NCBI GenBank assembly: GCA_016748015.1
Contig: JAAOMT010000766.1
Span: 13,064 to 77,063, forward strand
DNA: 64,000 nt
From: Geosiphon pyriformis uo1
Taxonomy: Eukaryota; Fungi; Glomeromycota
Reading direction: 5' to 3'
The translations under genes and the position numbers were made by a program. Of this stretch, positions 1 to 44,400 are shown one piece after another. Position 1 is the first letter of the stretch; every line of letters starts with the position of its first letter. The notes under the pieces were generated by a model. It was not told the origin of the DNA. It saw nothing but the letters and a program-made list of their open reading frames with translations, and did not search any database.

Positions 1-288
1 TATTGATTAATTTGGGTGAACTATTCATAATTTCGGCGACTTTCTATAAATTTCGGCGAATTTCTGTAAATTTCGGCGAATTTTTGAATGTTACAAAGTT
101 CAGGGTATTGTGTAATTTGATCATCCTACTTTCTGTTATACTAATTAGATTATTTTAATTGAATTGTGATATGTGATAATTGATTAAATAATAAATGATA
201 ATTTGAAATGATATTAATATACTAATGAATTATAGGAATTATAAGAGTAATTTTATGCTAATTAATAACTAAAATTCTACTGGTAATA
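1..288 (-). mobile_element. 5' (U3) part of a family-A Gypsy LTR, inserted in inverted orientation into the RT of a same-family element; continues beyond the window start
   Basis: Reverse complement of ~3394-3700, including the AAATTCGCCGAAATTT repeats; ends TGGTAATA at 288 (TG end mutated to TA) directly before the RT codons V-Y-L-D-D. Confidence 0.9.
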
Positions 289-2560
289 TTGTCTATCTTG
301 ATGACACTGATATATACTCACCAAGCTTTGAGACTCATCTTATACACCTGCAAGAAGTTTTTCAATGATTACTAAAAGCAGAATTAAAGTTAAATATTGA
401 AAAATGTCACTTTAGAAAAACAAGCTTAATTTTCTTCAGACACATTGTTAGCAAAGATGGAGTCAAACCAAATCCTGGAACAATCAGTGCTGTCAAAAAC
501 TTTCAAACTTCCAGAAATACCACAGAACTATGAAGATTTGTAGAATTAGCCTCTTACTATTGAAAATTTATAAAAGGATTCTCAGAAATTGCCAAACCAC
601 TTAATTATTTTACCAACAAAAATGTACCATACAAATGGACTGAAGAACAACAAAAAGCTTTTGAAACTCTCAAAACAAAATTGACAACAGCCCCAATTCT
701 TGCTTACCCAGACTTCAACAAACAATTCCAATTAGCCACTAATGTTTCACACATAGTATTTGGTGCCATCTTATCACAATTAAATGAAAATGGCCAGAAA
801 CAAGTTATTGCTTATGCCAGCAAAACATTCAAGCCAACAGAACTCAAATATGGCTCAACTGAATTGGAAGCTGCTGCAGTCATTTGGGCTCTCAAATACT
901 TTCAACAATACCTAAAGAATGGAAAAGAATTTGACATAATAACTGACAATATTGGCTTCAAATGGCTTAATAAAAAAAAAAACTGAACAAAGTGCCAAAC
1001 AGTCTCAATAGAATAACTTTCTAGCAGACTACAGATACATTGTACATCACAAACCAGAAAAACTACACACCAATGTTGATAGCTTCTCAAGAATGAGACA
1101 ATATTAATACCAACATCAACACCAACAAAACACCAACAAACTTAACAGTAGAACAAACAACAAAATTAACAACAATAGATCCAGAAAACTACAACAACAT
1201 CAAAAACTATTTGAAGACTCTTACCATGCCAGAAAATTGGTCTCCAAGTGAAAAACATTGATTACAACACCAATCCAAACAATATTTTATACACCACAAC
1301 AAAATCTATTACAAAAATCATAAAAATCCAAACCAACCATTCAGATTAGTATAGGAAAATGAAAAAAAAACAATTCTATACAACATGCACACAGATCTTT
1401 TTTCAGCACACTTGGGAAGAGATGGAACAATTCAAAAAACTTTTGAACATTATTTTTGGTCTCACATGCAAAAAGACATTTGACTATATGTAGAATCTTG
1501 TGATAATTGTCAAAGAAGAGGAGGAACTTGTCCCACAGAACCTTTAAATCCAATCAAAGTTGGACAACCATTTGACAGAGTTGGAATTGATTTAGTCAGA
1601 CCATTACCTATCACAACCCAAGGAAATCATTATATTGCAGTAGCAGTAGATTATCTTACCAAATGGCCTGAAGCTAGAGCCATCCAAAGAGCAGATGCAA
1701 AATCAGTAGCAAATTTCATCTATGAAGACATTATTTGTAGACATAGATGTCCAATTGAACTCTTATCTGATTAAAGAACACATTTTGTGAACAACCCAAT
1801 ACAAGAAATTTGTGAACAATTCAATATCAAAAGATCTCTATTATTGTCTTATCACCCTCAAACAAATGAACGTGTAGAATGGTTCAACAGAACATTGTGT
1901 GAATTGTTGGCCAAAGTCTCAACAGATTTTGACCAGGAATGGGATATTTTTATTCTATCAGTATTACTAGCATACAGAACACTAAAACAAGATACTATGA
2001 AACACACACCATTTGACCTTATTTATGGAAAGACAGCAATATTACCAATTAATTTCACAGTAGAAACATACCTAGTGCAACCAATTAATGAAGAAAACTT
2101 TCAAGAAACACTCCAAAGAAGGTCCTACACTCTTCTCAGTACACTGGAAGGAAAAAAAAAGATAGCAGCAACTCACATTGAACATTCCCAAACTCAACAA
2201 AAAGAAAGACATAACAACAAATTACCACTCATTATCAATGAATTTAAAGTTGGAAATAAAGTTCTCTTACACAGAACTAAGACTGAAAAACAATGGAGTG
2301 GAAAATTTGAAAACAAATGGGATGAACCATTTTATATTTACGAAATTCTAGGCAATGGATCATATAAGTTAAGACTTGATGATAAAATACTAACAAAAGT
2401 TGCACATGGAGACAAATTGAAACACTATCATTCCAGAAACAATTCTGAAACATTAATTCCACAAATTGGTACACATTCCCCTTTAATTAATCCTGAAGAT
2501 ATTCCCCAAAATTTAGAACCAATAATTATAATAAAACAACAACCAAACTTGAACACTTAA
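289..2560 (+). pseudogene. Gypsy pol remnant: RT, RNase H, integrase with GPF/Y-type C-terminus
   Basis: VYLDD at ~291-305; APILAYPDF, VIAYASK, YGSTELE in ORF 681-986; YHPQTN.VE.FNRTL and WSGKF..KWD.PF in ORF 1787-2560; several premature stops. Confidence 0.92.
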
Positions 2561-2705
2561 ATTTTACAATAATTCTTTAATAAAAACACAAAGACAAAAA
2601 ATAGTAAATAATTACAAAAAACACTCAAACCCAAAAACAAATAAAAACTCCATATCCAAAAATAATTTTCTTTATTCTCTCTTTTCATAATTAGTCAATT
2701 TTATC

Positions 2706-3382
2706 ATGATTATTCCCCGAAATATTCAACAAATATCCCAAAAATTAATGTTAGCCTTGAAAACACTTCCTGACTTATCCATAACGATTAATAGAAGTCA
2801 AATTAATTACATTTAGAAAGAAACCACAGCTCCAGTAGTAAATTATTTACAGAACTATTACCTCTATAGAAGAAAAACAAGAAGTCACTCTGAAAATAGG
2901 TTACCAAGACTTTTGAAGCAAACACTAGAAGAAAATCTTTTAATTGCCCCTATTGACATTCCACCAAATGCTACAATACAACAAAAACTTCTACTACTTC
3001 TCAATAAACAGAACAATGAACACACCCCTATCTATAAATACTTTCATATTGAAAAGACACTTTATGAATGAAAACTGGAACTTGAAACAACAAATCTCAT
3101 TTCTAAAGCTATACAAAAACAAATTCATAATGAATTCAAAACAGCAGCTGGATCAACAAACACTCACTACAAACTTAGAGCAGCTTTTAGACTCTATGAT
3201 TTGTTTAATACTTGTGAAAATGTTCTACAAAATCCAATACTGTAACCAATGAAAGTCCAATACATTGGCAAACTCACAGAACTGAAATTTTAACAATTTT
3301 CAGACCAGATTACTTCAATTATTTTGGATCACTATTTCAATATCACAGATAGTGTTTGGACTTCGATGGAGCTCAGTCTTGA
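2706..3382 (+). pseudogene. Accessory ORF3 of family-A Gypsy (unknown function, ~225 codons, interrupted by transition-type stops)
   Basis: Manual translation MIIPRNIQQISQKL...YKYFHIEKTL...LRAAFRLYDLF...VLQNPIL..MKVQYIGKL; homologous to the ORF3 copies at 28.4, 31.5 and 41.5 kb. Confidence 0.72.
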
Positions 3383-3393
3383 GGAGGAGATTA

Positions 3394-4404
3394 TGTTATC
3401 AGTAGAATTTTAGCTATTAATTAACATGAAATTACCCTTATAATTCCTATAATTAATTAGTATATTAATATCATTTCAAATTATCATTTATTATTTAATC
3501 AATTATCACATATCACGATTCAATTAAATAATCTAATTAGTATAACAAAAAGTAGGATGATCAAATTACACAATACCCTGAACTTTGTAACATTCAAAAA
3601 TTCGCCGAAATTTACAGAAATTCGCTGAAATTTATAAGAAATTCGCCGAAATTTATAGAAATTCGCCGAAATTATGAATAGTTCACCCAAAGTAATTAAT
3701 AGTTCAGCGAAATAACTTGTAGTTCATCAAAATGTATCTTTAGTTCACCAAAATTTGAGCAAAGAGAAAAAGTGCAAGTTCATAGATTAGTACTACAACA
3801 AGTTGTATAAAAAAAGAGCTTTTCTCTTCAAAAAAATGTATCTTACTTTAGATTTATCACTTAGAACCATTTCTACACACACAAAAAGAAATAAATATCA
3901 AATAATTTGAAAAACCAAATTCTTTAATTATTGCACTTGGAAATCCCCAAAACCCAACTAATGTTTTAAAATTGATTAGCTACCAATTTCAGTAAAACTG
4001 TTAGTGACTTCAGGCCTGGATAGAAAACGTTTCCCTTGACAGAATTCAATTTTTTTTATATTTTTTTTACATTTCTTTTATTTTCTTATTATAATCATTA
4101 GGGTAGTCTACAAACGAGATTCCTGTAGAAGAGTTGACTTTCACAGCAAAATAACTACACATTTTAGTGAGCTTCCAGATGAGCAATTCCTGGGAAAGAG
4201 TTGACATTTACTACAATGTAATTACATAAAGTAACTGGCAAGGAATTGGTCATTCCACTTATAAGCCCAGCAAGTTCAAATTATAGAAGATAATTTGAAA
4301 ATAAATTCAGTTATTGGAGGTTCAACTACTTCTAGAAAACGTGAATTTGCAACCAACAGACATTTACAACATTCAAGAAAAGAGACCAAAAACCTCTGGT
4401 AACA
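3394..4404 (+). repeat. 3' LTR of family-A Gypsy (~1.01 kb)
   Basis: Starts TG 3 nt after the PPT; inverted ends TGTTA(T/C)CAG / CTGGTAACA; LINE sequence resumes at 4405. Confidence 0.85.
3598..3752 (+). repeat. U3 tandem array: ~19-20 bp AAATTCGCCGAAATTT units, then TAGTTCA(C/G/T) units
   Basis: Four visible TTCG-C-(C/T)GAA units; inverted copy at ~30-85. Confidence 0.85.
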
Positions 4405-7400
4405 CCATATTAAAACTACTACAGAAATTCATACTTATAATGCCATTAACACACCTAGCTTCTTACTTAATGAAATTAACTATATTAAACAAATTTTTAA
4501 TAAAGTAATAAGCATTACCAAAAACAGGTTTGTTTTCAATATTGAAAAAACAACATGACATTATAAGAAGTAAAAACAAATCTGGAGACAACTGTAATAT
4601 TGACATAGAAATTGACATGTTTGTTTTTAACATTGCCAGAATAACTTTTGATTTTTTTCCATGTAATTAAAATTTTTTTTTTGAAATGACTTAATAAATA
4701 TGCTCTTTTTTAATCCAGCATTTATTGCAAAAATCAGGACCAAACACACTATAACTAAAGTTATACATGTCTAACAAAGCTTGGCTGTTTGTAAACAAAG
4801 TAACCAATTTAGAAACAAGAATACATTTCAAAGCAAAAACAATGGCCTACAACTCCATTAAAGTTAAAAACAACAACCCATTTATTCTAATTCCAACACT
4901 AGTGTTCACATTTGGAAAATAGGCAGCAACATCACTATAAACACTCACTAATCCCAAACTTTTAACAAAGCCATCTATGTAAACAGTTACAGAAACTGGA
5001 CCAGAATTCAATAAACATTCACAAATATAATCAAAGTCACAAAAAAGATTGGCAAGAATGAACAGAAGAGATACTGACCTATTATATAACAAACTATCTT
5101 CACCAATAAACTTGACCAAAAAACCAAACTATATGGGAACTGGGCCCTTAGGGTCCAGTTTTTTTCATTTACAAAAAGTATTCCATGTAAAACACATGTC
5201 ATAATATTCCAAAAGCTGGTTTACAAACATAATCTTATATCTTTTAAGAGACTTTACCATGCCCAAATAACAATTTAAGCCCAGCACATTCAGAATTGCA
5301 ATATTATTTTCAGCCCAAAAAACATCAAACAGATTATTACTTAAAAACAGATTGCACAAAGCAAAAGCATGTGTTGTACTAGTCAAAAAACAATTTATTG
5401 GATTAATTAGCAACCTAACCAGAATTTAAAGAGAGTGCTAGAGCATTCAGCTAGTGACTTGTAGATCTATAGCTCTGTGTTTGAATAAATTGCTAAGAAT
5501 TTCATTAGTATTGGTAAAAATAACCAAACCAGCCAACAGATTCTTAGTTAGCACTTGCTCAAAAGTTCTCAAACTGTACAACTCAGGATAATATAATGTC
5601 TTACTCAAAAAGTTCTTGGACAGATTAGCTTTAAACTTTAACTCTTTTCTTAATATTTTGTCTCATTTCTCATACACACTTTTTGAAACACAACTGAATT
5701 GCAACTTATAGTCAACAATAGACTACACAATAACAAAAACCAAATACAAAAACTGTTTCTTAGTAATGGTCTTTCTCAAAACCACATTCAAAAAAAACTG
5801 AACATCCAAATAAGTCTTAACTAAACTTGGTTTAAACAGGCTATTAGTTAAGAAAAAAATTCCCAAATATTAATAAGATTCACATTTTTTAGCTATAAAG
5901 ATATTAGAACCATTAATTAACAGCAAAGAATTCTTGGCTTCTTGGTTAATAGGAATGGTGACCATTTTGTTTGTATTGATTGAAATATTATTTATTAAAA
6001 AAAATTCACTAGTAATATCCAAAATATATTGTATAGCCACCATACAATTTTTAATCCAAATAATATTATTAATAAAGACACTAGCTGCAAAAAAAAAAAA
6101 CTTTGCCATCTCTGAAATCAACCTTATCAGACTTTGTAAAAAACTTTAAATTCAATCTATAACCACACAATTGCTTATGTTTTTTGATTTTACAAAGCAG
6201 AAAATCATAAAAAATTTTCCATAGCAGTGGTAAAAAGATTTTCTTTTAATCCAAACTATCATAAACAGCATATCTACTAGTAAGTTCAAAGTTTGTCATC
6301 ATTTAATTAGTCCAATCATTATGTATACTTTCAAAAAACATTACAAAATGGGAACACATCTTGATCCTAGCCAAGTTATTCTATAAATAAAATCATCTAA
6401 CTAAGTCATAAGCTTTTTGCATATCCTAGAGAACCAGCCACAGCTCCCTGTCTTTTTTTAATGCATTCTCAATTATTGAACCAATAGCAAAAATCAGAGT
6501 TTGAGTGGACATATTCTTTAAAACTAAAAAATTATCATCATAAAAAACATCAAACTTACTGTAAACCAAAGATATCCTGTCTAAAAAAATCTTAGACAAT
6601 ATTTTTTGGGCTGTTTCAATTAATATTATAGGTCTGGTATTTATAAGAGTCTTTTCTTAATCATGGTTTTGATATTATAGACACCCATGTTTGTTTTTAC
6701 TGTGTAGGCACTGTACTTAACACAAGACACACATTAAAAATATTTAACAAACCACTTAAAAACCAGACATCTCTATGCTTTCAAAGTTTGTTCAGAATAC
6801 CAGAAAGTCCAGCAGTTTTACTATTAAACAATTTCTTAACAACCTAAAAAAACTTATCAAATTTGATATCACACATAATATTCAAAAATACATCATTATT
6901 GACATAGTCTAAAGAAACATATTGATTAAATTATTGGGCAAACAGAGCATTAAGAATCTCATGCTTTCTTGTCTATCTTTTTATAATAATGTTAACTATA
7001 GACTTAACTTTATCAGGTGCCAGGATTAAATCATTATCTACAATTAGATAGTCGAGCACTACTTTCTAAAATGATCACTTCAAAACATTGTTGATTATAT
7101 GTTCTTTATTAAAACAAAAGTTTTCCATGTATTTGTTAATTGCTTTTTTAATAAGAATGTTTTTGGCAATCTTAAATTTATAATACTTGGATTTATGGTA
7201 CTTTTTTCTTATTTTTGACAAATAATATAAAATTCTCTCTATGTTTTTGTCATTGCCAACTATAATGTGCACTTTGAAAGCCTCTACTTTGTTAATACTA
7301 AACTATATATTAATAAGATAATCAGCTTTTAACTTTTGACTCAAATCCAAATATTTTACTATCTTGGTTACTAACAACTTTAGCTTAAAGAACCTTGATA

Positions 7401-10285
7401 ATTGTTTATTCTTAGAACATTCAAACTTGTTAAACCAGAATTTAGAAAACATTTTATTGACAGAGCTTACCACCACCTCTTTAAGAATTTTCCACATAGT
7501 ATTCAAATTTTTATCATCCTTTGCATCATAAAATTCATCCAACTTTTTCAAGAATTTGTCCAATAAATGTTTTCTAAAACATGCCTATTTATTGATATTG
7601 GCATCTTTGATTCTAAATTTTTACTTATTTCTATTAGTTTGCTTATAATTACTATTGAGACAAGTATTTAAAAAACCACTTAAACCAACCAAAACCATAA
7701 TAGTTCTGTAATCCATATTAAAGAAACCAGAAATAGAATTAACTCTATGATTGACCATTGCAAATAACAAACTTCTACTTATGAAAATATAATCAATAAC
7801 TTTTTTAGCACTCCTTGAATTGTTCCAAGTAAGAGCTTTACTCAGCAAATGTCTATTAAATAAATTGATCAAATTCAGATCCAAACAGAACTTGAAACTT
7901 GCACTTTTCCTAGATTTATTTTTATTAAAATCTTTACTCAGAATCACAAAAGTGTTGGAGTTAACAGTCTTAGCAATAAAAAAGTTGATTCTTACAGTTT
8001 GACTAAATCTGATTTTAACCAAAGTATCAGTATACAGAACTAAAATTGTGACCAAAAGTTTGCCTTTAAAAAAAAGCCTCACTAAAATAACCTGATCAGG
8101 GCTTCTTTAATCTTAGAAACATAATACATCAGAGAATTGTTCATAATAATGACCACTCCAGCACCAAAAAACTTTTTGTTTAAACCAGATGAAAAAATTT
8201 TTATACTATTAAACTTATTCATAATCTATGGTCTAATATTAGGTCTTAACTTCATTTCTGTAATAATTAAAACCATATTTTCTAAATTTACATGCCAGTA
8301 AATAACATCTTTTTGCTTAGCAAAAACATTGATACTCTAAACATTACATGTAGCAAACTTCTAGATTAAATCACTTATTGAGACAAAGAAGACACCAAAA
8401 AACCTGAGCCAGTACACAATTAATCCAATTTCACCAGAACTAAACTAACAAAAACTTTGAGAGCCACCAATTTCGACTCCAAACTGCCCACCTTGATAGT
8501 CAAAACTTTTGAACTACTTGAATCCAAAGCTAAGACATTAAAGGCAACAAGAAAAAGAGGCAAATACAACAATTTAGAACCATCTAAAACCATATTTAAA
8601 TCCAGATCCAAACCATCAGCCAATAAGATAGCCAAATTGTAAAAGGGAGGAAGAAAAACCAAAGACACTAATTCTATGTTGCTAAGTTTGCACACTAAGC
8701 TAGAAATTTAATCTACTAAAAGCTTCAAAGAGCATTTTAAAGAAGCCAAATAAGCATTTAAAGATGAGTTATCAGCTAAAATAAAAGAAAAATTATCACT
8801 CAAACTTAATGCACCAAAAGGAAGAAAACCAAATTCTGAAGCTGCAAATAAACCATAAAAAAGGGATTCCACTAAGACTACTTGAATCTAAAATTTACCA
8901 CCAAAGGCAGTAAAACAAGAGATAAAAACATTTTTCTTGGCATACAGCTTGGCTAGCTAAAGATAACTCATATCTGATGTAGTTTTTTTAAATAATATTG
9001 AAGACTTAAAAGTAAACACACTTGTTATACTATATTCTAAAGTGAAATGACCAAATTTCTCACACTTTTTATACCAAACCAGATCTATTCTAATCCATAA
9101 GAGTTTTATGTCACCAAAAATTGGCTTCATGTAAAAAACAAACTTTAGCTCTTTGTCAAAATTGAAACCAATCATGACACAGCAAACCCAATTGCCAATA
9201 TTAAGTAAATAATTAATAACACATGTTTTCTCACCTATTTTTTTTTAAAGAGTATTAAGATTATAAACAGTCATTTCTATAGGCAAGATAAACAAAAGTG
9301 CTCTGAACTGATTCTTAAACATTTAAGTACTACAATTTTTCACAGTTATAGTTACACATACTGAGTTTTTTCCAATTAGAAATAACTATTTTGAAACCAA
9401 CTGTTCAGTTTGACCTGATTTAATAAATTCTATCACAGCTTTTTGCCACATACCAATGAATTGAATTTTGATTAACTTAATTTCTCTAAACTTAGATACT
9501 ATAGCAATAATTATTTCTTTAAGCATATTTATAAGAATTTTTTTGATTACTACTGTTCAATCTAAACAGATTTTTTGTCTTTTGAAAAAATATTGGCCCT
9601 CCCAAAACCATTGATTGTTGAGAACAATTTCTTAATAAACTGAGTTTTTGCTGTTGTAGATTTGCTTTCTACCATTGAAATATTAATGTTCAAGACAAAA
9701 GACTTTTTAATTGATACCTCAACTTGAGTTTTTACAATTTTTGGGTTAATTCATTTGTTTTTTAAAAAAATATTAAGAGGAAAAAAGAAAAGTCTATTAT
9801 CTTTATCTATGCCATAATTAATAGAACCCAAAAAAAAACCACACTCCAAACTGATATCTACCCTTCTATTTGTCTTAGAAGTGTTTACTACTAAACCAAG
9901 AAGAGAGCCATTATTGATACCCAAAAACATACCATTATTTTTACTATCACTAGATATATTGTCTTTATCCGAGTATATATCACTGTCAATAATAGGTTTA
10001 ACCAAAAAAATATCTCTTTTATTATCAGAATACTTAATATTACCAACTGAAACTTTTTTTTTCTAAGAAAAAAATCTCTAATAGGGTTTTGCAAAGCACT
10101 CTTAAACATCTTTTTTTTGATATACTACTATTTAAAGCAGCTACCAGATCCACTACAAAAAGATTATTTGCTTGAAAAATGTTATAAGAAACTAACCAAA
10201 AAAAAATAAAAACAAAAAATTTCTTTTTTAAAAAAACACTTTTTAAGAAATTTGGGAAAAAAGAGAGAAAGAAGTTTTATTATTT
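4405..10285 (-). mobile_element. Decayed non-LTR retrotransposon (LINE): 5' UTR, ORF1 (RRM-like + CCHC), ORF2 (APE endonuclease, RT, RNase H); 3' end interrupted by the family-A Gypsy
   Basis: ORF1 start ~10109; knuckle remnant KCEKFGHF..E ~9040-9070; FATCNVR ~8340-8360; KKVIDYIF; RT FVDD degraded to FINN ~6070; RNase H VYIDG..EL.AI in ORF 4847-5119; homologous to the copy at 21.5-27.5 kb. Confidence 0.85.
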
Positions 10286-10299
10286 TTTTAAAATTATTA

Positions 10300-13200
10300 T
10301 ATTATAATTAATTAATTTATATTATTTTAAAATTTTTTACTAAATTTTTAAACTGTAACAATGTGTAATTTTTTTATTAACATAAAACTTAAAAGCTAAT
10401 TTTATTAATAAATTGTTATTAATTAATTTTAAATATTTTTAATATTATTAAAATAAGATTTTTGCAAATTTTAAGTAATTTGTATTTGTAATTTCTAATT
10501 TTGTTACTTTTATTAATAGTTTCTAATAATGTTTTTGTTTTTTATAAATTATATCTTATAAAAAACATTAAATATTATAAGTAATTTATTGAGTTTTTTA
10601 ACTTTTTATAATTTATTATTTGAATATAAAATTTTTTAATATAATAATTTTTATAAAAAATTTTTTAAAGGTATTAATAAATAAATTTTTTATATAATAA
10701 ACAAAAATTTAATATAATAATAGATAATACTCAATATTTAATTTTATTAATATAATAACTGATTTATTTTGGTGTTTTTTGCTTTTTTAATATGTATTTT
10801 TAATTTTTTGGCTATATTTTATATTTTTTTGGTGTTTTTTATCAAACAATCTTTGATATTATAATTTTAATGTTTTTTTTAATTAATTAGTAAATACAAA
10901 ACAAAACAAAACAAAACAAAACAAAATAAAACAAAATATTTTATTAATAGTTATAATTAAGAATTATTGTTTTAATATTATTAATAACATTTAAGTAATA
11001 TTATTAAAATTAATAAAAAGTAATTAAATTTTAATAAAACAAGTATAAATTTATAAAATTTGACTTATAAGAATATAAATAATAATTTTATTTTATAAGT
11101 AATATTATAAATCTATTTAAAAAAAACTGAACTCAATTATATAATTTACAATAAGTTGTAAAACAACAAAAACTAAATATAAAAATTGTTTATTAAAAAT
11201 AGCTTTTTTTGATTTATATTTAATTAAGATTTTTAATTAAATTATATTATTATAATTACACTAATTATTAATTTTTTTTTTGTTATTAATTAATTTTAAT
11301 ATTAATTTTTATAACATATATTAAAAATTTTTACATAAAAAGCTGGTTTTTTATTTATTTATAATAATATTATAATAATTTTTAAAATTTTAAATTATTA
11401 ATTCTTAGACTACAATAAAAATTAAGATAAATTGCTAAAATATTTTACTTTTTTTTTATTTAGTTTTTTTGTAAACTATTTTTGTTAATATTTTTTTATT
11501 CATAACAATAGATTTGGTAAACTTTTTTTTTTAATAATTCAAACATAAAAAACTAATATAATATTTATGTCTTTTATAATATAAACTTATAATATTATTT
11601 TAATTGGCTTAAATAATTAATTACATATAAAAAATACATAAATTATATTTATTTTAAAATCTAGTTTAATTATATTATAGTTGTTAAACCAAATAAATAA
11701 AAAAATTAAATATTATTATATTTAATATTATTTAGTATTAATAAATTAAACAAATTTTTTAAGTATAAATTTAAGTTTTAAATAAAAAATTAATTTATAT
11801 TATTTTGTATTTAAACCAATTAATTTTAAATTTTTAAAATATAAAAAAAATATAAAAAAATATAAAAAAATAATATTAATATTTATTAAAATTTATAATT
11901 TAGCACATATAAGATAAATTTAAAAATATTTAAATAATAATTAAAATACAAAGTATTTAAAATATTAACATAAAAATTATAATCAATTTATATATTAAAA
12001 AAAATAAAAAAGCTGTATTTTTTTATTATTTAAAATAATTGGTAATTTTTTTTATTAATAAAGCACTAATAACTATAAAAACTGTTTAATAATACTTTGT
12101 AAAAATACTTTTTTAAAAAAATAGTAGTTAATTAGTTTTTTATTGTTTTAAACTCATTTTTTTTATTTTTAAACAAAAGTTTTTTTTCAAAATTTCTTTA
12201 AAGTAGTTTATTTAGAATAGTTTTAATATGGTTTTTGTTTTTTTTTAAAAGTCTCAAAATATTTAATAAAAAGCCAATAACCAAATTATTTTTTTTGTTT
12301 TTATTATAGTTGTTTAAATAGCAAAAAACAATGTTAAATATTTTTTTTGCTTTGGTTTTTTTGTTTTTTTTTGGCTTTTTAATTAATTTTGTATTATTAG
12401 TATTAATTATAGTATTTAATATTATTGTAATTATAAATAAAAATATTTTTTATATTTTAAATAACAATAAAAATATGTTAACCAATTTTAATTTAAATTA
12501 GTTTTTAGTTATATTTTTTAATATATTAATTTTTAACCAATTTTTATTGGTTTTAAAAACAAAATAAAACATATTTTTATATATTTTTTTAACCAATTAA
12601 CTTATTAAATTATCTGATTTTAAATATTAGATTAACTAAATAAAAACTGAATTAATTATTTTTTTTTGTTTTTTGGTACTGTTTTTAATAATATTTAAAA
12701 AATAATTACAAATTTTTTGAATAAATAGTTTTTATTTTAGTATTTAATACTATTTTTAAGATTAAACTGGTTTTTGTTAATTTTTTATTAAAGTTACTAT
12801 TTGGTTTTATTAAACTTAAATTTATTTTAAAAGACAATATTAAATTGTTTTATATATATTTTGTTTTTAAAAATTTTTTGGCTATTATTATTAAAATTGT
12901 TATTGATAAATTTGTTTTTTTAATTATATTTGAAATTACAAAGTTTTTTGTAATAATTTTTGCTTTTTTTTTTGTTATAAATGTTTTTTATAATGTTATT
13001 TTAATTAAATTAAAGCTTATAAATTTATAATAATATGTTATTGTTTATTTAAAGACTTTTTTTTTGCTATTGTTATTTTTATTTACTAATCTGTATTAAT
13101 TAAAAAAAACAGCATTAAAATTTTTTTTACTTAATCAAAAAAAGTTATTATTGTAAAAAACAATTTTAAAACCAAATTAATTAATTTTTTTTTGATAATA

Positions 13201-14800
13201 CAATCTTTAAAATTAATAATCTGATTTTTTAGATTAATAATTGTATATTTTTTACTTTTTTGATTTTTATTGTTATTAATGTTTTATTATTGTAATTTTT
13301 AATTCTTTGGAAATCTTAAATTTTATAGTTTTAAAAACTGGTATTTTATATAAGTATTATATTTAATAAAAAACTTTTGTATATTATTATTGTTAAATTA
13401 TTTAGCCATAAATTATAAAGTCTCTTATTTCTTTTTTTTAAGTTTGTTTTTAAATTTATTAATAGCTTTAAATATTTTAATTTATTATTTATTGGTATAA
13501 AATTTATGTTAAAGTTTTTGTCTTTTTAACTTTTTTTATTGTTGTGTCTTAGATTATTTTAACTGTTAATTTTGTAATTAATTTTAAATTAAATTTTTGC
13601 AATTTTAAATCTTTAATTTGGGTGTGTTGATTAAATTTATAATTAAGTTAATTAGTTTTTTGGTTATTTTGGTTAATTTTTTTTTGGCTAAAAATATACA
13701 CAAAAATTTTAAGATAAAAAAAAATTTAATATATTATTAAAAATTTTAATTAAAAGTAGAATTTGGTAATATAAACAATAATAATTAAGTAATATTAAAA
13801 TTTTTTTTAAGTAATACAATTATTGAATATTTAATAATATTATTATAAATATATAATTTTAATATTAAGTATAATATTAAAAAAATTAAATTGTTTTAAA
13901 GTAAATTTGTTTTTAATAGCTAAATTTAAATAGTTTCATAAATAAATTTAATGAATTAAATTTACTTCTAGCTTTTTTTAATTTAATTTAATTTGTATCT
14001 TAATTAATTTAAATAATTAATTAATATAAAAAATACATGATTTATATATAATTTAAAACTTTTAATATTAAATAATAATTAGATTATATTTATTAAAAAA
14101 ATAATATATATTATACTAAAAAACCAAATTAAGATTTTATATAAAAAAATTTTTATAAAGAAAATAAAACAAATTTATATTGTTTTTTTAAATAAAAATT
14201 AGTTATAATTATATATTTAAAATAATTTTTTTTTAAAAACATATTACTTATTAAAATTTAAATTAATACATATAAAATATATTCAAAAATAATTAAACAA
14301 CAGCTAAAATTACATAATATTTAAAATATTAACATAAAAATCTACAATCATTTTATGTTATACCAAAAAATTAAACTAAAATTTTCACAAAATGATTTTT
14401 GTAAAAAAGATAAGACAACTTTGTATTGTTTTTTTAAATAATTTTTATGTAATAATCACATTTAAATACTAAACTCAAACCAGTATGTATAAAGTAGGCC
14501 TAAAATATTTAAATAACAGTATTCAAAATATTAGCATAAAAATTTATATTATGCCAAAAAACTAAATTAAAATTTTTTTATATAAGATGGTTTTTGTCAA
14601 AAAAGGTGAAATTTGTATTGTTTTTCTTAAATAGCTTTTATGTAAAAATTCTTTACAATTACACATCAGATAAAACAAATGTTGAAAAACAAATAACAGT
14701 TTTAATAAACAATAATCTTAAACACACAAGCTATTTAATCAAATGTTTTATATTAATAATAAAAAATAAAATAATGTGCTTTTTATCAAGCATTGAGTAA
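10300..14800. repeat. Extremely AT-rich fossil TE zone, including a ghost of the family-B LTR near 10860-11000
   Basis: TATTTTATTAATAGTTATAATTAAGAATTATTGTTTTAAT (~10937-10976) aligns to the LTR block TATCCTGTCAATAGCCATAATCAAGAGCTATTGTTCCAGT using only C>T/G>A changes, and is preceded by the same A-rich tract. Confidence 0.6.
14110..14650 (+). repeat. About three diverged ~200-bp tandem units
   Basis: Recurring (C/T)AAAAAA.TAAA.TAAAATTTT...TTTTTGT.AAAAA...TTTGTATTGTTTTT..AAATA at ~14115, ~14360 and ~14550; partial related copy at ~11600-12000. Confidence 0.55.
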
Positions 14801-15199
14801 TTTTTGATTGGTTATTATTATGTACATGTATTTAAAAGAGTATTTTAATATCCTTAGAATTCAGAATTATTTGCATAGGCAGAATAGAAAGTCTCGAACT
14901 TGGGACCAGCATGCATATAGAGAGTATGCACTTATAGAGTGCACTTATGAAGGTATCACTGTAATCAAATATTTTTACTTTTAAAAGAAAAAATTATTGT
15001 TTTTTTGGGTGAAAATCTTTTCGAGACATTTTGCAATTAATCTTAGCTTTCGACATGGTCGAAAGATTAACCAAAGCAAGAACCATCTCTGTATCTTTAT
15101 TATTCCGAAACTCCAAAGTTCACCGACAAATTTACGGGAATATTAAATATAATGTGGTTTAAAAAACGCTGTTTTCAATAATTCGCTTCAAAATAATTA

Positions 15200-17952: not shown

Positions 17953-18182
17953 GGCTTGCAAAGTTGTGGGTCCTGTATTTACTAATTCGAATCTGTAATT
18001 GATAATTGAACATCTTTAACACTCTTCCTATGATTGGTCAAAGAAATCTTAAAACCTATGAAAAAGTTATAGGCCATTTTTCTTTCTCCCTTTTCTTTAG
18101 TAGTGCTTCTTTGATTTAAGATTTTTTCTTGAGCTCTTTATTTTCATAAGAAATTTAGATCCTTTAGTGATTCCCAGATAAA
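17953..18182. promoter_or_regulatory. Putative bidirectional promoter between FRS1 and RPS22
   Basis: Only 230 bp between divergent ATGs; ATTGG (CCAAT box) at ~18033; pyrimidine tract at ~18077-18098. Confidence 0.6.
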
Positions 18183-19083
18183 ATGGTCAGAGTATCAGTA
18201 TTGGTATGTATATTAGTGGATTGTACCTTTACAAGAAAGACAAAAATGATTTGCTTATTTGGTTTTGTAATCTGTTAATCTGTATATGTTAGAATGACGC
18301 TCTCAATAACATTGTTAATGCCGAGAAGCGAGGCAAGCGTCAAGTACTTATAAGACCCTCCTCGAAGGTAGTCGTCAAGTTTTTACTCGTAATGCAAAAA
18401 CATGGTAACCTATTTTTCATTTATTACATTAAGTAAAAATAAAAAATACAACTTTTGGGATCGAAGTTATAACTGGATGAAAGTCTTTATTCTTTGGTTG
18501 ACTTTTATTTTTTAATGCTTCGATAGATAAAATTATTGCAATGTACTTACACGCCGTGAACTTATTAATTTATGGGCCCGGCGTTTAATATATTGCTACA
18601 CGACGTTCATTTAAACTCAGAAAAAGCCTGATTTAATATTTTTTCTGCCAAATATAGGTTATATTGGCGAATTTGAGGAAATTGATGATCACCGTTCAGG
18701 AAAAATCGTTATTCAACTTAATGGTCGTCTAAATAAGTGTGGTGTCATCTCACCACGATTTAATGTCAAATTGGAAGATGTTGAAAAGTGGGTCAATAAC
18801 TTGTTACCTTCTCGTCAATTTGGATTCTTGGGTTTGTTTTTCCCTTAATTTTATTGAATCCTTTTTTTGGGCAAAATTTTGTTGATAGTCGAGCTCACTG
18901 AATTAATTTCATTGTAATAGTTTTTACCACCAGTTCCGGTATCATTGACCATCACGAAGCCAGAAGAAAACACACCGGCGGAAAAATTCTTGGTGGGTTC
19001 TTGAATACTCCTACCTTTTAAGCTTTACTTTATTTTGCACACCTTTTTAATAATTAACTATATTTATAGGTTATTTCTATTGA
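18183..19083 (+). CDS. RPS22: 40S ribosomal protein uS8 (S22/S15a), 5 coding exons
   Basis: MVRVSVL|[36 protein letters not shown]|[42 protein letters not shown]|..[23 protein letters not shown]|YFY*; all introns GT-AG. Confidence 0.97.
18458..18603 (+). ncRNA. snR44: Intronic box H/ACA snoRNA, snR44 homolog (guides 18S U106 and 25S U1056, yeast numbering)
   Basis: Hairpin 1 ATCGAAG..CTTCGAT with pocket TATAACT/TTTAATG; H box AGATAA 18525-18530; hairpin 2 GCAATGTA..TATATTGC with pocket CTTACA/TTTAA; ACA at 18598-18600. Confidence 0.9.
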
Positions 19084-19240
19084 AAAACACGTTAAATCTA
19101 GCTTGAATTTATATATTCATTAATATTATTAAAGCACTAGAGTACTTAATATTAAATGGAATTATTATCGTGAACCAGCTATAGTTTATTAAAAGGGAGA
19201 ATTTCTTGCCACGGCACTTAGCTAGGAAATATTGCGCAAT

Positions 19241-28401: not shown

Positions 28402-31400
28402 TTATTCTCTCTTTTTTAATATTAAGTTCTGTTGAAATCTCCTATATTTCCTAACTTTTTATCTTTAATTAACTCTTGAACTTTTTTTTCAAGAATTATT
28501 TAGGTTATTTTAATCTGTAATTTTTCAAATTAGGCATTGGTAATTTTACCCAATTGGTTGATGGTAACTGTATTTATTGCTAAATTAAGTAATATTGTTG
28601 GTCAATCTTGAAATCCTGCATATAGTCAATATATGGCTTATGTCTGTGTAAACAGATTGTTCTTTCTTACAAATTGTTCAAGTTGTTATAGTATTGTTGT
28701 ATTGAATAACTATTTTGTTTTATCAATGTACAAGTTTTAAATATTCAGGTTTTGTTCCAAGTAATAATAACAAAAATTTCTTAGAAATTGTTGTATTCAC
28801 TAATTCCAAGTTTTTTTCATTAATTCTTAATATAGTACAGCTGTTTCTGGTATTTCTATTAACAATTTTACTTTTGCCATTATCTTGTTTATAGTGTTTT
28901 TCAGTTTTTTATGTATCTTGTATTGGGGTTTTTTTTTATTATCTTTGTACTGAATGATTTGTTGGTTGATTGTGATTTTCATGTTTTGTTGTTAAATTAG
29001 TTAGAATAGTTGTTATGTAAATGAGTAGATGTCATTGGTAATTTTCATCTTTTATTATTGCTTTTGTTGCATATACTATGTTTTTATATATTTTTCTGTT
29101 TGTTCAATTTGATGTGTTTGTATTAATGATTATGATTGGTTCTAGATCTTGTAAAATCTCATCTGGTTGAACTAGTATTTATTGTACTCCCAGTTGTGGA
29201 ATATTATTGGTAAATAATAATGCTGTATTGTAATATGGTTTTAGTTAATTTTCATGTACTGCTTTAGCTAAGATTTTGTTGTTTTATCTTAGCTTATAAG
29301 CTTCATTTCCTAGAATTTCTTTAATATAGAATGATTCATCCCATTTGGCATTGAATTTTTCACTCCATTGTTTTTTTGCTTTGGTATGATATAAGAGTAC
29401 TTTGTCTTTAATCTTGAATTTAACTGGTTTGTCTGATAATTGGTTATCATGTTATTTTTTTTGTTTTTTTTGTGATTTTTGAATGTTTTTCAACATTTTT
29501 ATTAGTTTATATGTTCTTTTTAACAGTGTTTTTTAGAAATTGGTTTCTGTTATTAGTTCTATTAGATATGTATTGATGTTTATCTTAACTGGTAATGTTA
29601 CTGTTCTACTATAAACAAGTTTAAATGATATTGTTTGTGTGATATTCTGCTTTATTGTTCAATAAGTAAATAGTACTAATAATATAAATGAATTCCATTT
29701 GTTCTGGTTTTTTTGGCTGATTTTTGCTATTATTTTACACAATGTTTTGTTGAATCTTTCCACTAACCTATTTGTTTATGAATAATATAATAATAATAAT
29801 AGTTTTTTGATTCTAAATCTTTGACTTAATTCTGTTAATATTCTGTTTACAAAATAAGTTTTTTAATCTGATAATAATTTTTTCAGACATCCATAACAAC
29901 AAATCAAATTTTAGTGAATAAATTTGACTACAGATTCTGCATCTGCTCTTTGTATTGCTTTTATTTTTGGCCATTTTGTGAGATAGTTCATGGCTACTGC
30001 TATATAATAATTTTTTCTGCTAGTTATTATTAATAATCCAACTAAGTTAATTCTAATTTGATCAAATAATTGTTCTACTTTAATTGGTTTTAGTAGTTTA
30101 CTGGGTCTTGTTCTTTCTTTTTTTTAACAAGCATCACAATTTTGAACATATTAAATAATGTCTAAATACATTAATGGCCAATAGTATCTTTTTCTGGTTC
30201 TTTCCATGATTGTTTTTTTATAAAAATGTCCTGCTGTTGAATCTGAATACATATTGAATAGTTTTGTTTTTTTTTCTGGTTTTGTAATGATTCTGAGTGG
30301 GTAATCTAAATATTTTTTGTTCTTTTGGTATAATATATCTTGGTAAATAATAAAATATTTTAATTGTTGTTTTATGTTGTTTTGTTTTTTTTGAGATGAT
30401 TTTTCCTTAAACTATTGAATATTAATATAATGCTAGAGTTATTGATATTTTTGTGTATTTATTTTTTGTTATATTTTTGGGTTAAAATGTTCTTAGTTTT
30501 GTTTCATTTGTAACAAACTGTCAGCATTTCTATTTTTTTTTTCTTTTTTATAATATACTGTATAATTAAATAACAATAGTTTTATTTTTTATTTTGCATA
30601 GCAGTTATCTCCAGATTTTTGCTCTTAAATTGATGTCAATTCTTTGTAATTAGTGTATACATCAAATTTTTAACTCAAATATTTTTTCTATTTGATAACA
30701 GTTGTTACTGGTAATTATTTGGAATCTCAAATCAAATAATAAAACCTGTAACTTGGTGCTCAGAAGTTATTTGTAATGATAGTGTTGGTAATCTGAAGGT
30801 TTGGGTTAAGTTCTTTGTATAATAGACAGAGATTAGTAGTTGTTTTAGTAGCCTTCCAGAATCACAATTCCATCAAATTTTTTTCTCAGCATAGTGGCCA
30901 ATAATCCTCCTGGTAAGCTATCCTCAAATCTATAAGTGTTCTACCCTTGTTTCATGGGTTTTTTACCAGTTCCTATGATGTCTATAACTTAGCGCTTTAA
31001 TCTTTAATCAATTAGTTAACCAAAAAGAAATACAAAAAAAATAAAAGAAAATAAAAGAAGATAAAGAATTTAAACAAAAGCAATTGCAAGTTAGTATCCT
31101 GTCAATAGCCATAATCAAGAGCTATTGTTCCAGTGTAGTTAAGTATTAATTATTATCAACATGAAGTGTTGATAGTAAAGAATGAATTGAAGATAAAAAA
31201 TAATTATTTATTAATTTTTGTGAATAGAAGATTGCTTAGATCAAATCTAAATTAAGAGGTCTTTAATTGAAAGATTCTGTTTTTTCTATTTCTAGCACTA
31301 CTGTTATATATACATAATTGAAATTCCTTAATTCCTCAATTCTTCCCATTAGAAATCCTGAAATTTCTGAAATCCTGCAATTTCTTTGAGAGGAATTTTG

Positions 31401-31491: not shown

Positions 31492-32121
31492 TTAATATTG
31501 AGCTCTATCATATTTTCTAACTTTAATTTTCCATCTTTGAGTATTTTTTGAACTTTTTTTTTCAAGTATTATTTGGGTTATCTTGTTCTGTAACTTTTTG
31601 AATTGGGCATTGATTATTTTTCCCATCTGATTAATAGTGATGGTGTTCATTACTGGATTAAGTAAGATTTCTGGTTGGTCTTAAAATCCAGCATGCAATT
31701 GATAGATGGCTCTTGCTTGTGTTGTTAGATTGTTTTTTCCCATAAATTTCTTAAGTTGTTGTAGTATTGTTGTATTGAAGATTCGTTTTGTTTTATCTGT
31801 ATATAAGTTTTGAATATTCAAGTGTTGTTCCAAGTGGAAATAATAAAAGTTTCTTGAAAATTCATGTATCCACCACATCCAAGTTTTTTTAGTCACTTTT
31901 TGATATGTGGTAACACTTGTTGGCTCCTTTATTGCCAATTTTACTTTTAGAATTATTTTATTAACAGTGTTTTCTGTTTTTTTTTGTACTTTGTATTGAG
32001 GTATTTTTCTGGTATCTCTATATCTAATAGTTTGTTAATTGATAATAATTTCCATATTTCATTGTTAGATTAATTGAAAGAGTTGTTGTGCTAGTGAATA
32101 AATATTGTCAGTAATTTACAT
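31492..32121 (-). pseudogene. ORF3 of B2 (homologs: B1 ~28420-29048, C ~41479-42113)
   Basis: ORF 31681-31938 plus flanks: ITDNIYSLAQQLF..MEIIIN..YYFHLEQHL..ARAIYQLH..PEILLNP..ITINQMGKI. Confidence 0.75.
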
Positions 32122-35100: not shown

Positions 35101-35419
35101 GTGGTTGATCCTCAACTTTAATGGTTAAATATCCAATAATAGTTCCTTTTGGTATCTCAATGACATTTCTGGTTGTGTTATAGATAGAAATTTTAATGTT
35201 TTTAGGGCTTTTGATTGATATGTAAAGATTAGTAAGTCTAATTTCTTCTGATTCACAAATGGTGGCTTCTGCTTCAAACAATTGAGCTTGATTCTTTACT
35301 TTTTTTTTTATGGCTAACATATATTGGTCATATGGTGGAATGGAAATTGGTTGATGGGTGGAAATAATTTCTCCCTTGTTAATAATTTTTTCCTCTGCCA
35401 TATTAACTGGTACATCTAT

Positions 35420-41249: not shown

Positions 41250-41402
41250 CGCTCACATTTCCAAGTGATGTGCTATAATTTCTTGAGCAATGCTCACATT
41301 GCTGAGTGATGTGCTCTAATTTTCTAATATTGCTCCACATTGCTGAGCAATGTACCATGTTTTCTGACATTGCTCCACATTGCTGAGCAATATGCTCACA
41401 TG
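41250..41402. repeat. U3 array of element C: ~30-40 bp units built on the palindrome CACATTGCT-G-AGCAATGTG (second copy at ~50325-50515)
   Basis: Directly visible tandem units. Confidence 0.85.
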
Positions 41403-44400
41403 CTAAATACTATTCTCTTATTGGTCTGCTATTTTCTATGTCTGTTTTCTTTTTATAAGTACCATTATCTTCTTCTTTTAATATTGAGCTCCGTCAAAAT
41501 CTTTGTTTTGAATTAATTTTAATATTTTTTTTTCAAGTATTGTTTGTTTGACTCTGTTTTTCACATCTTCTACTTGTGTATTGTTTATTCTTTTCCATTG
41601 GTTAATGGTTATGGTTTCCATGTCAGAGTGTAACAATATTTCTGGATAATTTTGAAATATGTTGTATAGTTAGTATATTGTTTTAACATGTAGTGTTGAA
41701 TTAGTTTTCTTTCCGATAAATTTTTCAATTTGTTGTATTATGTCTTGGTTGAATATTCTCTTGGATTTGTTAATATACAACTTCTGAATATTCAACTTTC
41801 GACCTAACTGATAGTAGCAATATAATATTGGAAGTTGTTCTGTTCATTGCTTCTAATTTTTTTTTGTAAGTTCTTCTGTTGGTGCCATAATAAGTATTTT
41901 CCCAAAAGTGTTCTTCACTTTTTCTATTAAGTTATCTGTCCAGTTTTTATTATTTTTTGGTGGCTGCTAATATGGTGTATTTTTTGTCTTTCTTTTTGTG
42001 TTTCGATAGCAAATTGTTTGATTGTTGATAACAATTTCCATATCTAACTGTTGTTGACTTAATGTCTAGAACAGTTGTTAAGCTATGGTGTGAATGTGAT
42101 CTGGTATTTCCATTTTTCTTGGTTGCTTTTGTCACGTGTATTGTGTTTTTATATCCTCTTTTGGTTGTTCAATTCAATGTGTTTGGTTCAATAACTATGA
42201 TTGGTTCCAAATCTTGTAGAATCTCATCTGGTTGAACTATTATTTTTTGTACTCCCAACTGTGGAATGGTATTGGTAGATGATAATGCTATCTGGTGATA
42301 TGGTTTTAGTCAATCACCATGTGCTGCTTTGGCTAAAATTTTGTTGTCCCATCTTAATTTATAAGCTCCATTTCCTAGAATTTTTTCTATGTGAAATGGT
42401 CCGTCCCATTTGGGGTTAAATTTTCCACTCTATTGTTTTTCTGCTTTGGTACAATGTAATAGTACTTTGTTTCCAATCTTGAATTCCACTAGTTTATTTG
42501 ATAGTTGGTTATCATGTCATTTTTTTTGCTTTTCTTGTGCCTTTTGGATATTATCAGCTGTTTTCTGTCGTCTGTTTTCTAGTGTTTTCATTAAGTCATA
42601 TGTTTTTTTCAACAATGTTTCTTGGAAATTATCTTCTGTTATTGGTTCAGCTGGATATGTATTGATCTCTATCTCAACTGGTAATGTTGCTGTTTTACCA
42701 TATACCAATTCAAATGGTATTGTTTGTGTAGTATCTTGCTTTATTGTTCAATAAGCAAATAATACTGATAGTATAAACAAATCCCATTTGTCCTGATTTT
42801 TTTGGCTGATTTTGGCAATTGTTTTATACAGTGTTCTATTAAATCTTTCAACTAAGCCATTCATTTGTGGATGATATAGTGATGATAATGGTCTTTTTAT
42901 TCCAAATCTCTGGCTTAATTTTGCTAATGTTCTGTTCACAAAGTGAGTTTTTTGATCTGATAGTAGTTTTTTTGGACATCTATGTTGACAAATCAAATCT
43001 TAATGAACGAATTTGGCAATGGATTTTGCATCTGCTCTTTGAATGGCTTTTGCTTCTGGCCATTTTGTGAGATAGTCTATGGCTACTGCAATGTATCTGT
43101 TGTCTCTGCTGGTGATTATTAATGATCTAACTAAGTCAATTCTGATACAGTCAAATGGTTGTTTCACTTTAATTGGTCTTAATGGTTTACTGGGTTTTGT
43201 TTCACCTCTTCTCTAACAAACATCACAATTCTGAACATATTAAATGATATCTGAATACATTGATGACCAATAATATCTTTTTCTTGTTCTTTTCATAGTT
43301 GCTTCTTTATGAAAATGTCCTGCTGTTGGATTTGAATGCATGTTGAATAATATTGTCTCTTTTTTTGGTTCTGTAACAACTCTTATTGGTTAATCTGAAT
43401 TTTTTCTGTTTTTTTAGTAAAATATATCTTTATAATTAATAAAATGTTTTGATTGTTGTTTAATATTATTTCACTCAATTTGTGATAATTTTTCCTTGAA
43501 CTGTTGAGTATTTATATAATGTTGTAATTGTTGATATTTTTGTATGTTCATCTTTTGTTATATTTTTGTGTTGAAATGTTTTAGATTTGTCTCATTCATG
43601 ACAAACCATCAGTATTTCCATTGTCTTTTTTCTTTTTATAATGTATAGTGTAAGTATATGATGATAGTGCCATTTTCTATCTTGATTGTCTTCCATCTCC
43701 AAATTTCTGTTTATGAATTGCTGTTAATCTTTTGTGATCTGTGTATACATCAAACTTCTGGCTCAAGTATTTGCTCCATTTTATGACTGCCCAATAAATT
43801 GCTAAGTGTTCTAATTCTGGTGTTCCATAATTTCTTTCAGCTGGAGTTAAACCTTAGCTGGCATATGTGACTGGATGTTCTCTTCCATCTGGTCCTCTCT
43901 GTGATAGTACTGCTCCCAATGCTTGGCCTGATATATCAGTGGTAATAATGAATAGTTTATTGTAATTTGGATAGATCAGTACTGGAGCTTGTATAAGCTT
44001 TCATCTTAGAATATCAAAAGCTTCTTGTTGTGCTTCTGTCCATTTGTATTTCACATTCTTGATTTGGAGATGATTGAGTGATTGGGCTATCTTGGAAAAG
44101 TTTTTGATGAAGTGTTAATAATAGCCTGCAAATCCCAAGAATGACTTTAACTCTGTCATATTGGTTGGTACTGGAAAGTTCTTGACTATCTCTATCTTTT
44201 CTGGATCTGTTTTAATGCCGTCTTTGCTTACTATGTGCTCTAAAAAGTTTAATTCTGTCTTGCCAAAGAAGCACTTATTGGCATTTAACTTTAGCTTTGC
44301 TTGTCATAGCCTTTCAAACACTTGTTGTAGATGATGCAAATGATCATTGAATGTTTTGGAGAACACATTGGTGTTGTCTAAATAAATGACTACTGATTTC

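What the first reader, a model, noticed from the sequence alone, without database searches (positions are those of the whole stretch)
2706..3382. Conserved third ORF in the env position, shared by two distinct Gypsy families and not Env-like
Seen: family A and elements B1, B2 and C each have a separate ATG-started ~210-225 codon frame between integrase and the PPT. Family A has a different LTR, yet the frames share motifs: N-terminal I..NI...Q.L.....I.IN..I.Y, central YFH(I/L)E..L, C-terminal RA...L...F.....L.NP.......GK....F......IT.IIL. They end near a conserved TTYGAYGGAGCTCA block, which reads DFDGAQ in C and degenerately in B1. No signal peptide or transmembrane stretch is evident. Inference: an old, selected accessory protein of unknown function (anti-silencing, RNA export or targeting factor), needing a spliced or internally initiated mRNA.
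Basis: partly seen in the sequence, partly recalled or inferred. Interest (0 to 1): 0.8.

Follow-up and report, generated by a model that had tools for sequence, protein, structure and literature searches.

The report
Fungal retrotransposon's non-Env regulatory gene
These decayed fungal jumping genes carry an old, conserved extra gene of no known family just before their terminal repeat; it is not an envelope gene, and it likely encodes a DNA-binding protein that would recognise the element's own promoter repeats and keep it active against host silencing.

Summary
The third ORF is real, though all four window copies are broken by stops; A spans 2706-3413. A, B1, B2 and C are homologous (z 8-79 against 1000 shuffles; dN/dS 0.15-0.42, dS near saturation). 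Named database relatives are all Geosiphon pyriformis hypothetical proteins. They form at least six subfamilies, plus two unnamed metagenome proteins; one of these sits in the same gene order. There is no Pfam family, transmembrane segment or Env trait. The predicted core is helical (pLDDT 89) and resembles ParB-type helix-turn-helix domains only at noise level (Z 5.6). New here: ORF3 type tracks family-specific U3 repeat arrays, and A's array keeps 13 of 14 CpGs in otherwise CpG-stripped DNA. Best reading (about 0.4): a regulator that binds its own LTR, like VANC or Tas. Binding and expression are untested. Corrections: the TTYGAYGGAGCTCA block is conserved as DNA and read in different frames, and the 'E' of YFH(I/L)E is a decay product of G. 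Integrase is also a separate ORF.

The parts
2706..3413 (+). ORF3 of element A (type I, reads through the PPT into the LTR); 235 codons, 4 internal stops
   Evidence: 85% identical to open 235-aa database copies
1175..2560 (+). Integrase of element A, a separate decayed ORF behind the RNase H stop at 1105-1107; the start codon is read as decayed to ATA (inferred); C-terminal Tf2-1-like SH3 domain
2561..2705 (+). 145-nt spacer between integrase and ORF3, with a pyrimidine tract and a TAG just upstream of the ATG (possible splice acceptor, untested)
2712..2723 (+). One-mismatch copy of the A U3 repeat motif at the start of ORF3 (pattern chosen after it was seen)
   Evidence: the only match outside LTRs among 8; 0.06 expected in the window
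3362..3375 (+). Conserved DNA block before the PPT, read in different frames in type I and type II ORF3; likely a cis-acting signal
3381..3390 (+). Polypurine tract of element A
3394..4369 (+). 3' LTR of element A (3' end uncertain)
3598..3754 (+). A-type U3 tandem arrays (20-bp and 21-bp periods) upstream of a TATA-like box; 7 of 8 CpG positions kept in the 20-bp array
1..289 (-). Second A-type LTR, inverted and cut by the window start; array at 29-83 with 6 of 6 CpG kept
28420..29048 (-). ORF3 of element B1 (type II), 14 internal stops
31492..32121 (-). ORF3 of element B2 (type II), 5 internal stops and a late frameshift; a further in-frame ATG at 32151
41478..42113 (-). ORF3 of element C (type II, separate subfamily), 6 internal stops, ends DFDGAQY
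31322..31385 (-). B-type U3 repeat array in the 3' LTR of B2; a longer 40-bp-period array of the same type at 38394-38529
41264..41398 (-). C-type U3 array (40-bp period, unrelated to the B type); again at 50325-50511

Best explanation
ORF3 is a selected, element-encoded, soluble accessory protein of about 210-240 residues that likely binds DNA through a predicted helix-turn-helix-like core and would act in trans on the repeat array in its own family's LTR U3, keeping that promoter unmethylated and active. Shown: the gene, its position, its homology across subfamilies, purifying selection, the lack of Env traits, family-specific U3 arrays and CpG retention in the A array. Inferred: the fold class, DNA binding, the target and the effect. 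ORF3, the PPT and U3 are neighbours at the 3' end of the RNA, so a protein and its target would be copied and swapped between lineages as one cassette. The protein would be made either by re-initiation after the separately encoded integrase or from a shorter RNA; this is untested.
For: (1) The core model (pLDDT 89, pTM 0.82) has a three-helix bundle in which helix 52-67, a four-residue G-x-T-N turn and helix 72-86 form the most conserved stretch. The N of the turn is the same in all 8 groups compared; the start of the next helix changes by subfamily while its end (A..RLY..F) is kept, as expected of a recognition helix. (2) Among the top structural rows, Spo0J/ParB is the one that spans nearly the whole core (Z 5.6, rmsd 4.8, 95 aligned, model 1-133). 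ParB 6s6h (Z 4.5, rmsd 2.8, 60 aligned) and sigma F (Z 4.6, rmsd 2.4, 57 aligned) align on the bundle, and KorB appears with the full model (Z 3.4, rmsd 5.1, 96 aligned). Weak DUF1016_N hits fall on the same residues (E 0.003-0.12 in 4 of 7 proteins). (3) B1 and B2 share a U3 type and their ORF3s are 67% identical. C has a U3 unrelated to B's, although its R-U5 is homologous, and its ORF3 is 40-44% identical. Integrase is 67-73% identical among all three. (4) The A array keeps 13 of 14 CpG positions, while the interior of A has 5 CpG where 73 are expected. The LTR pair of C kept 5 of 22 (Fisher p 8e-5). (5) Precedent: VANC proteins bind tandem repeats that vary between related elements and evolve faster than the transposase (PMC5735166, abstract and section 9).
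Against: The fold match is within noise. No Z reaches 8, and two unrelated proteins rank above Spo0J; Foldseek found nothing at E 0.001. Profile-profile tests failed: DUF1016_N gave probability 4%, score 20.5, which was reached or nearly reached by block shuffles (best 21.8 of 40), and ParB gave 0.2%, while the DUF1016_N against ParB control gave 75%. The ORF3-U3 match rests on three types and follows from physical linkage alone. CpG retention is seen only in the A array. The B and C LTRs hold 0-4 CpG each and the L001 LTR has 4 where 12 are expected. The A LTR pair is also younger than the C pair (4% against 8% divergence), the array units are not independent, and a host transcription factor could protect the same sites. 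The two metagenome proteins are acidic (pI 5.4 and 5.9). Repeats in U3 are common in LTRs (general knowledge).
Confidence: 0.4

Rival explanations
1. ORF3 is an RNA-binding or translation factor. It would bind the element's RNA to export or package it, or let ribosomes restart on the polycistronic Gag-Pol / integrase / ORF3 message, as caulimovirus P6 or retroviral Rev do (both recalled).
For: Integrase is a separate ORF behind a conserved stop in A, B1, B2, C, D and L001, 6 of 6 junctions read, so the RNA needs an unusual expression route. The Atlas listed a closterovirus coat-protein cluster at 0.92-0.93 and a phage translation-repressor cluster at 0.89-0.90 for both queries. Type II proteins are basic (pI 8.5-9.9). 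A DNA block before the PPT is conserved.
Against: The Atlas rows share 150-156 and 118-123 features, under the tool's mark of 170, and recognition (2100, 2184) is under 2300. No Closter_coat Pfam hit and no named coat protein came up among the rows shown. This reading does not explain CpG retention in U3.
Confidence: 0.25
2. ORF3 is an integrase cofactor or targeting factor that tethers the integration complex to chromatin, or helps package the separately made integrase.
For: The integrase tail gave only an SH3 hit in Pfam, no chromodomain. Integrase is not part of the polyprotein. An unchecked scan note reports CpG-centred target duplications, and one solo LTR here is flanked by ACAT on both sides. 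A DNA-binding fold would also fit this role.
Against: ORF3 diverges far more than integrase between the same elements (B2 and C: 44% against 73%), which fits poorly with an obligate integrase partner. ORF3 type follows U3, not integrase.
Confidence: 0.2
3. ORF3 is a degenerate Env or cell-to-cell spread protein.
For: Position only.
Against: Highest 19-residue hydropathy 0.27-1.29, no R-x-K/R-R site and 1-2 cysteines in 9 proteins; no envelope fold or family.
Confidence: 0.02
4. ORF3 is a captured host gene or neutral passenger with no role for the element.
For: Expression is not shown, and all window copies are dead.
Against: Kept in the same place across subfamilies only 20-30% identical and in an unrelated metagenome contig; dN/dS 0.15-0.42; no host or bacterial relative found.
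Confidence: 0.04

Closest known systems
Sense additional ORFs between pol and the 3' LTR (aORF-3S; Vicient and Casacuberta 2020, PMC7264820, parts 1-2 of 3 read)
   Same: Same position and orientation, present across copies, conserved like other element genes.
   Different: The review's sense aORFs are mostly env-like, some with transmembrane segments, in plants and insects. This one is soluble, fungal and of a separate protein family, and it follows a stand-alone integrase.
VANC anti-silencing proteins of VANDAL DNA transposons (Hosaka et al. 2017, PMC5735166, abstract and section 9 read)
   Same: Fast-evolving accessory protein; related elements carry different tandem repeats; local escape from CpG decay in the A array.
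   Different: No DUF1985 or DUF287 hit; a retrotransposon, not a Mutator-like element; protection seems local, not element-wide; binding and demethylation not shown.
Foamy virus Tas/Bel1 transactivator (PMC517496 and PMC4929722, search listing and start of abstracts only)
   Same: Accessory gene near the 3' end (position recalled) whose product binds elements in its own LTR promoter, which is the working model here.
   Different: No sequence family hit; no env; no internal promoter shown.
ParB/Spo0J/KorB helix-turn-helix domain and DUF1016_N
   Same: Weak structural likeness over the core (Z 3.4-5.6) and a helix-G-x-T-N-helix pattern.
   Different: No significant sequence or profile homology; no ParB catalytic domain; the score is within noise.
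Non-Env ORF3s of bdelloid LTR retrotransposons (GDSL esterase, DEDDy exonuclease; PMC5408684, part 1 of 5 read)
   Same: dUTPase-bearing Ty3/gypsy-like elements with a non-Env ORF3.
   Different: Those ORF3s are recognisable enzymes; this one shows no enzyme family.

Membership tests
aORF-3S class | Sense ORF between pol and the 3' LTR | tested here: met
   A, B1, B2, C and L001
aORF-3S class | Present in most copies and conserved under selection | tested here: met
   4 of 4 window elements whose integrase-to-PPT region lies in the window; dN/dS 0.15-0.42 in 9 of 10 pairs, one saturated; 205 and 92 database relatives
Env / env-like | Transmembrane anchor | tested here: not met
   Highest 19-residue Kyte-Doolittle mean 0.27-1.29 in 9 proteins
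Env / env-like | Signal peptide | tested here: inconclusive
   Only a hydropathy scan was run (N-terminal 8-residue maximum 0.8-2.1); the model shows a helix and a beta hairpin there; no signal-peptide predictor was available
Env / env-like | Furin site and cysteine-rich ectodomain | tested here: not met
   No R-x-K/R-R site and 1-2 cysteines
VANC | DUF1985 / DUF287 domains | tested here: not met
   No such Pfam hit at E 1 in 24, 7 and 10 proteins scanned
VANC | Family-specific tandem-repeat targets in non-coding DNA | tested here: inconclusive
   Family-specific U3 arrays exist; that they are ORF3 targets is not shown
VANC | Sequence-specific binding and demethylation in trans | not testable with these tools
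   Only indirect: CpG retention in the A array
ParB-like HTH / DUF1016_N | Profile homology | tested here: not met
   hhalign probability 4% and 0.2%, within block-shuffle range; positive control 75%; Pfam scores 12.9-18.2 bits against a cut-off of 32.8
ParB-like HTH / DUF1016_N | Helix-turn-helix fold | tested here: inconclusive
   Spo0J Z 5.6, rmsd 4.8, 95 aligned; ParB Z 4.5, rmsd 2.8, 60 aligned; all under the noise mark
Foamy virus Tas | Own internal promoter and transactivation of the LTR | not testable with these tools
   No RNA run was listed
Closterovirus coat protein | Sequence family or capsid fold | tested here: inconclusive
   Atlas 0.92-0.93 with 150-156 shared features; no Pfam hit; not named among fold rows shown

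The most novel reading that the evidence does not exclude
A lineage of fungal Ty3/gypsy elements is organised like a complex retrovirus without Env: Gag-dUTPase-Pol, a stand-alone integrase, and a sequence-specific helix-turn-helix protein that co-evolves with repeat arrays in its own LTR and shields them from CpG methylation. It would be a retrotransposon-encoded, swappable anti-silencing cassette, possibly behind the LTR bloom in Geosiphon.
Probability: 0.25. Interest if true: 0.85.

Novelty: new variant of a known kind. Interest (0 to 1): 0.55.

Why it matters
Extra ORFs in LTR retrotransposons are common, but their functions remain unresolved (PMC7264820, PMC11728184). This family offers many natural copies, several subfamilies, a confident core model and a named candidate target for each subfamily, so a single cross-binding experiment could test function and specificity. 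Geosiphon has 41.2% of its genome in LTR sequence (PMC11952901, passage read) and its elements are strongly CpG-depleted here; an element-encoded counter-silencing factor would help explain that expansion. For annotation: the named hits are filed as host 'hypothetical proteins' but are retrotransposon genes.

Tried and rejected
No whole genome is held for this window, so ORF3 and U3 types could not be compared across many elements. No RNA holder was listed, which is no evidence on expression; read laying was not run. The homodimer prediction gave no answer (score 0.01, alignment not used) and counts neither way.

Family scans: Pfam gave no family at cut-off for ORF3 itself. The best PHROG was unnamed, E 4e-4 in 7 of 35 related members, and was not followed up. 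The PDB sequence hit to importin-5 fell from E 0.002 to 0.4 with a wider profile and is treated as chance.

Fold searches: Foldseek found nothing at E 0.001 in PDB or BFVD. The best BFVD core row was an uncharacterised phage protein (probability 0.90, TM 0.39, E 0.1), and a DUF3102 protein ranked 21st. The VIA second look gave Z at most 4.4. The N-terminal 75 residues were not folded alone.

Relatives outside fungi: none in phage records, IMG/VR or 301 sampled bacterial genomes (no positive control). No DUF3102 sequences were found to build a profile. I recall a similar helical domain in other Glomeromycotina proteins, but no search here returned one, so that stays a lead.

Literature searches that found no description of this ORF. 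The Geosiphon genome paper was not among the results, and supplements and Repbase were not seen.

Full report
Setting. The window is a stack of decayed Ty3/gypsy elements around a small gene island (aminotransferase and phenylalanyl-tRNA synthetase domains). The elements carry dUTPase, protease, RT, RNase H and an integrase with an SH3 tail. CpG is nearly absent from them (observed/expected 0.08-0.11, against 0.84 in the gene island). All 120 listed of 205 relatives of A's ORF3, and 92 of 92 relatives of B2's, are named Geosiphon pyriformis hypothetical proteins. The host is therefore likely that fungus or a close relative (inference). No genome was held.

The observation. Each of A, B1, B2 and C has a sense frame after the integrase stop. 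All four are broken: 4, 14, 5 (plus a late frameshift) and 6 internal stops. In A, all 17 clear differences from the family majority are C-to-T or G-to-A changes; 203 positions agreed and 14 were ambiguous. Open copies exist elsewhere: 25 of the 120 listed A-type proteins start at the same Met and are 230-246 residues long. Homology is not chance. All 10 pairs among the four window frames and L001 beat 1000 shuffles (z 8.2-78.6), two database copies give E 5e-8, and the two profiles give 92%. The second codon position is the most conserved in 10 of 10 pairs, and dN/dS is 0.15-0.42 in 9 pairs, with one saturated. dS is 1.3 or more throughout, so these ratios are rough.

Corrections. A ends at 3413, inside the LTR. 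The block before the PPT is read in one frame in A and L001 and in another in B and C, so it is a DNA- or RNA-level signal. The motif's E is decayed G.

Range. A profile search of 1.84 billion representatives gave 113 hits. Sixteen were under 48% identical to my reference copies. Twelve of those are named Geosiphon, two were not looked up but begin almost like a Geosiphon one, and two are unnamed metagenome proteins (P0253, P0260). The contig of P0260 (L001) shows RT-RNase H, a stop, integrase with its own ATG, a 316-nt spacer, an open 230-codon ORF3, the same block, the PPT and an LTR. A tree of 20 chosen rows splits type I (A subfamilies and the two metagenome proteins, reading into the LTR) from type II (B, C and two further subfamilies; B, C and one of these end just before the PPT). 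The tool warns that long branches meet. No relative came up outside these fungi in the other collections searched.

Not Env. There is no transmembrane-strength segment, no furin site and only one or two cysteines, and no family at cut-off. The full model (pLDDT 77) has a small N-terminal helix and hairpin, a loose linker and a helical core. The core alone reaches pLDDT 89.

Fold. No match is significant. Spo0J/ParB spans nearly the whole core (Z 5.6, rmsd 4.8, 95 aligned) but ranks third, below a designed protein and PNPase; ParB and sigma F align on the three-helix bundle. DUF1016_N gave weak hits on the same residues. My profile-profile test against 37 DUF1016_N and 30 ParB sequences did not confirm homology (4% and 0.2%; control 75%). 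What remains is a pattern: a helix, a G-x-T-N turn with an invariant N, then a helix whose start varies by subfamily. The helix-turn-helix reading is a lead, not a result.

LTR link. Every LTR type has a repeat array upstream of a TATA-like box, and the arrays differ by family. B and C are unrelated upstream of the TATA-like box but homologous after it. ORF3 follows the same split (B1-B2 67%, B-C 40-44%) while integrase does not (67-73%). ORF3 and U3 therefore seem to have moved together onto a shared backbone, which linkage alone could cause. The A array keeps 13 of 14 CpG positions, while the interior of A has 5 CpG against 73 expected. The C LTR pair kept 5 of 22, and only one CpG was kept in both copies across the seven other pairs. 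An Arg codon early in ORF3 is kept in 4 of the 8 A1-like starts found, a rough 50% baseline. Against this: the A pair is younger, the units are not independent, B and C show no such retention, and a host factor could do the protecting. A one-mismatch copy of the A motif sits at the start of ORF3 (pattern chosen after it was seen).

Expression. RNase H ends in a stop in 6 of 6 junctions read. Integrase restarts at its own ATG in B2, C and L001; the start looks decayed in A and B1, and D runs into a gap. I saw this before the scan's notes, which agree. Spacers before ORF3 are 145 nt in A and 24-55 nt in B and C. Re-initiation and a shorter RNA both remain open, and no RNA run was listed.

Mechanism. 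Most likely (0.4): a DNA-binding regulator of its own U3 array, working like VANC or Tas without belonging to either family. Rivals: an RNA or translation factor (0.25), an integrase cofactor (0.2), a passenger (0.04), Env (0.02); the remainder is unassigned.

Literature seen. PMC7264820, parts 1-2 of 3; PMC5735166, abstract and section 9; PMC5408684, part 1 of 5; passages of PMC11952901, PMC11728184 and bioRxiv 10.1101/2021.03.30.436303; foamy virus papers as a search listing. Searches returned no description of this ORF. The library lacks most subscription papers, and supplements were not read.

Verdict. A real, old, apparently undescribed accessory gene family in a known class of position: new variant of a known kind, interest 0.55. 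The gene is solid, the function is inferred, and the decisive binding test is simple.

Noticed in passing
window 1105-1177, and the matching junctions near 30450, 33590, 43580, 63880; L001 772-801: RT-RNase H ends in a conserved stop and integrase is a separate ORF: stop in 6 of 6 junctions, own ATG clear in B2, C and L001.
   Followed up: partly
window 1-289: A second A-type LTR lies inverted directly against the RT fragment of element A; it differs from the 3' LTR by 12 of 287 bases and one array unit.
   Followed up: partly
window 40619-41464: This LTR seems to serve as the 3' LTR of C and the 5' LTR of B2, a tandem or recombinant arrangement, although B2's 3' LTR has the other U3 type.
   Followed up: no
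window 53166-54071: Solo LTR flanked by ACAT on both sides, which fits a 4-bp target duplication on a decayed CpG.
   Followed up: partly
window 10000-15000: GC falls to 8-16%, probably an extremely decayed repeat next to the gene island.
   Followed up: no
window 5555-10292 and 21454-26024: Two inverted, 65-73% similar decayed repeats flank the gene island; class not determined.
   Followed up: no
window 34718-35935 and 45029-45904: dUTPase upstream of a protease with a weak spumavirus A9 match in the B and C elements.
   Followed up: no
window 15668-20983: Host genes on the minus strand: phenylalanyl-tRNA synthetase beta and a class III aminotransferase, with normal CpG content.
   Followed up: no
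ORF3 of B1, B2 and C: Synonymous divergence in ORF3 (1.3-2.1) is two to four times that in integrase (0.5-0.7) for the same pairs, which suggests exchange of the 3' module.
   Followed up: partly
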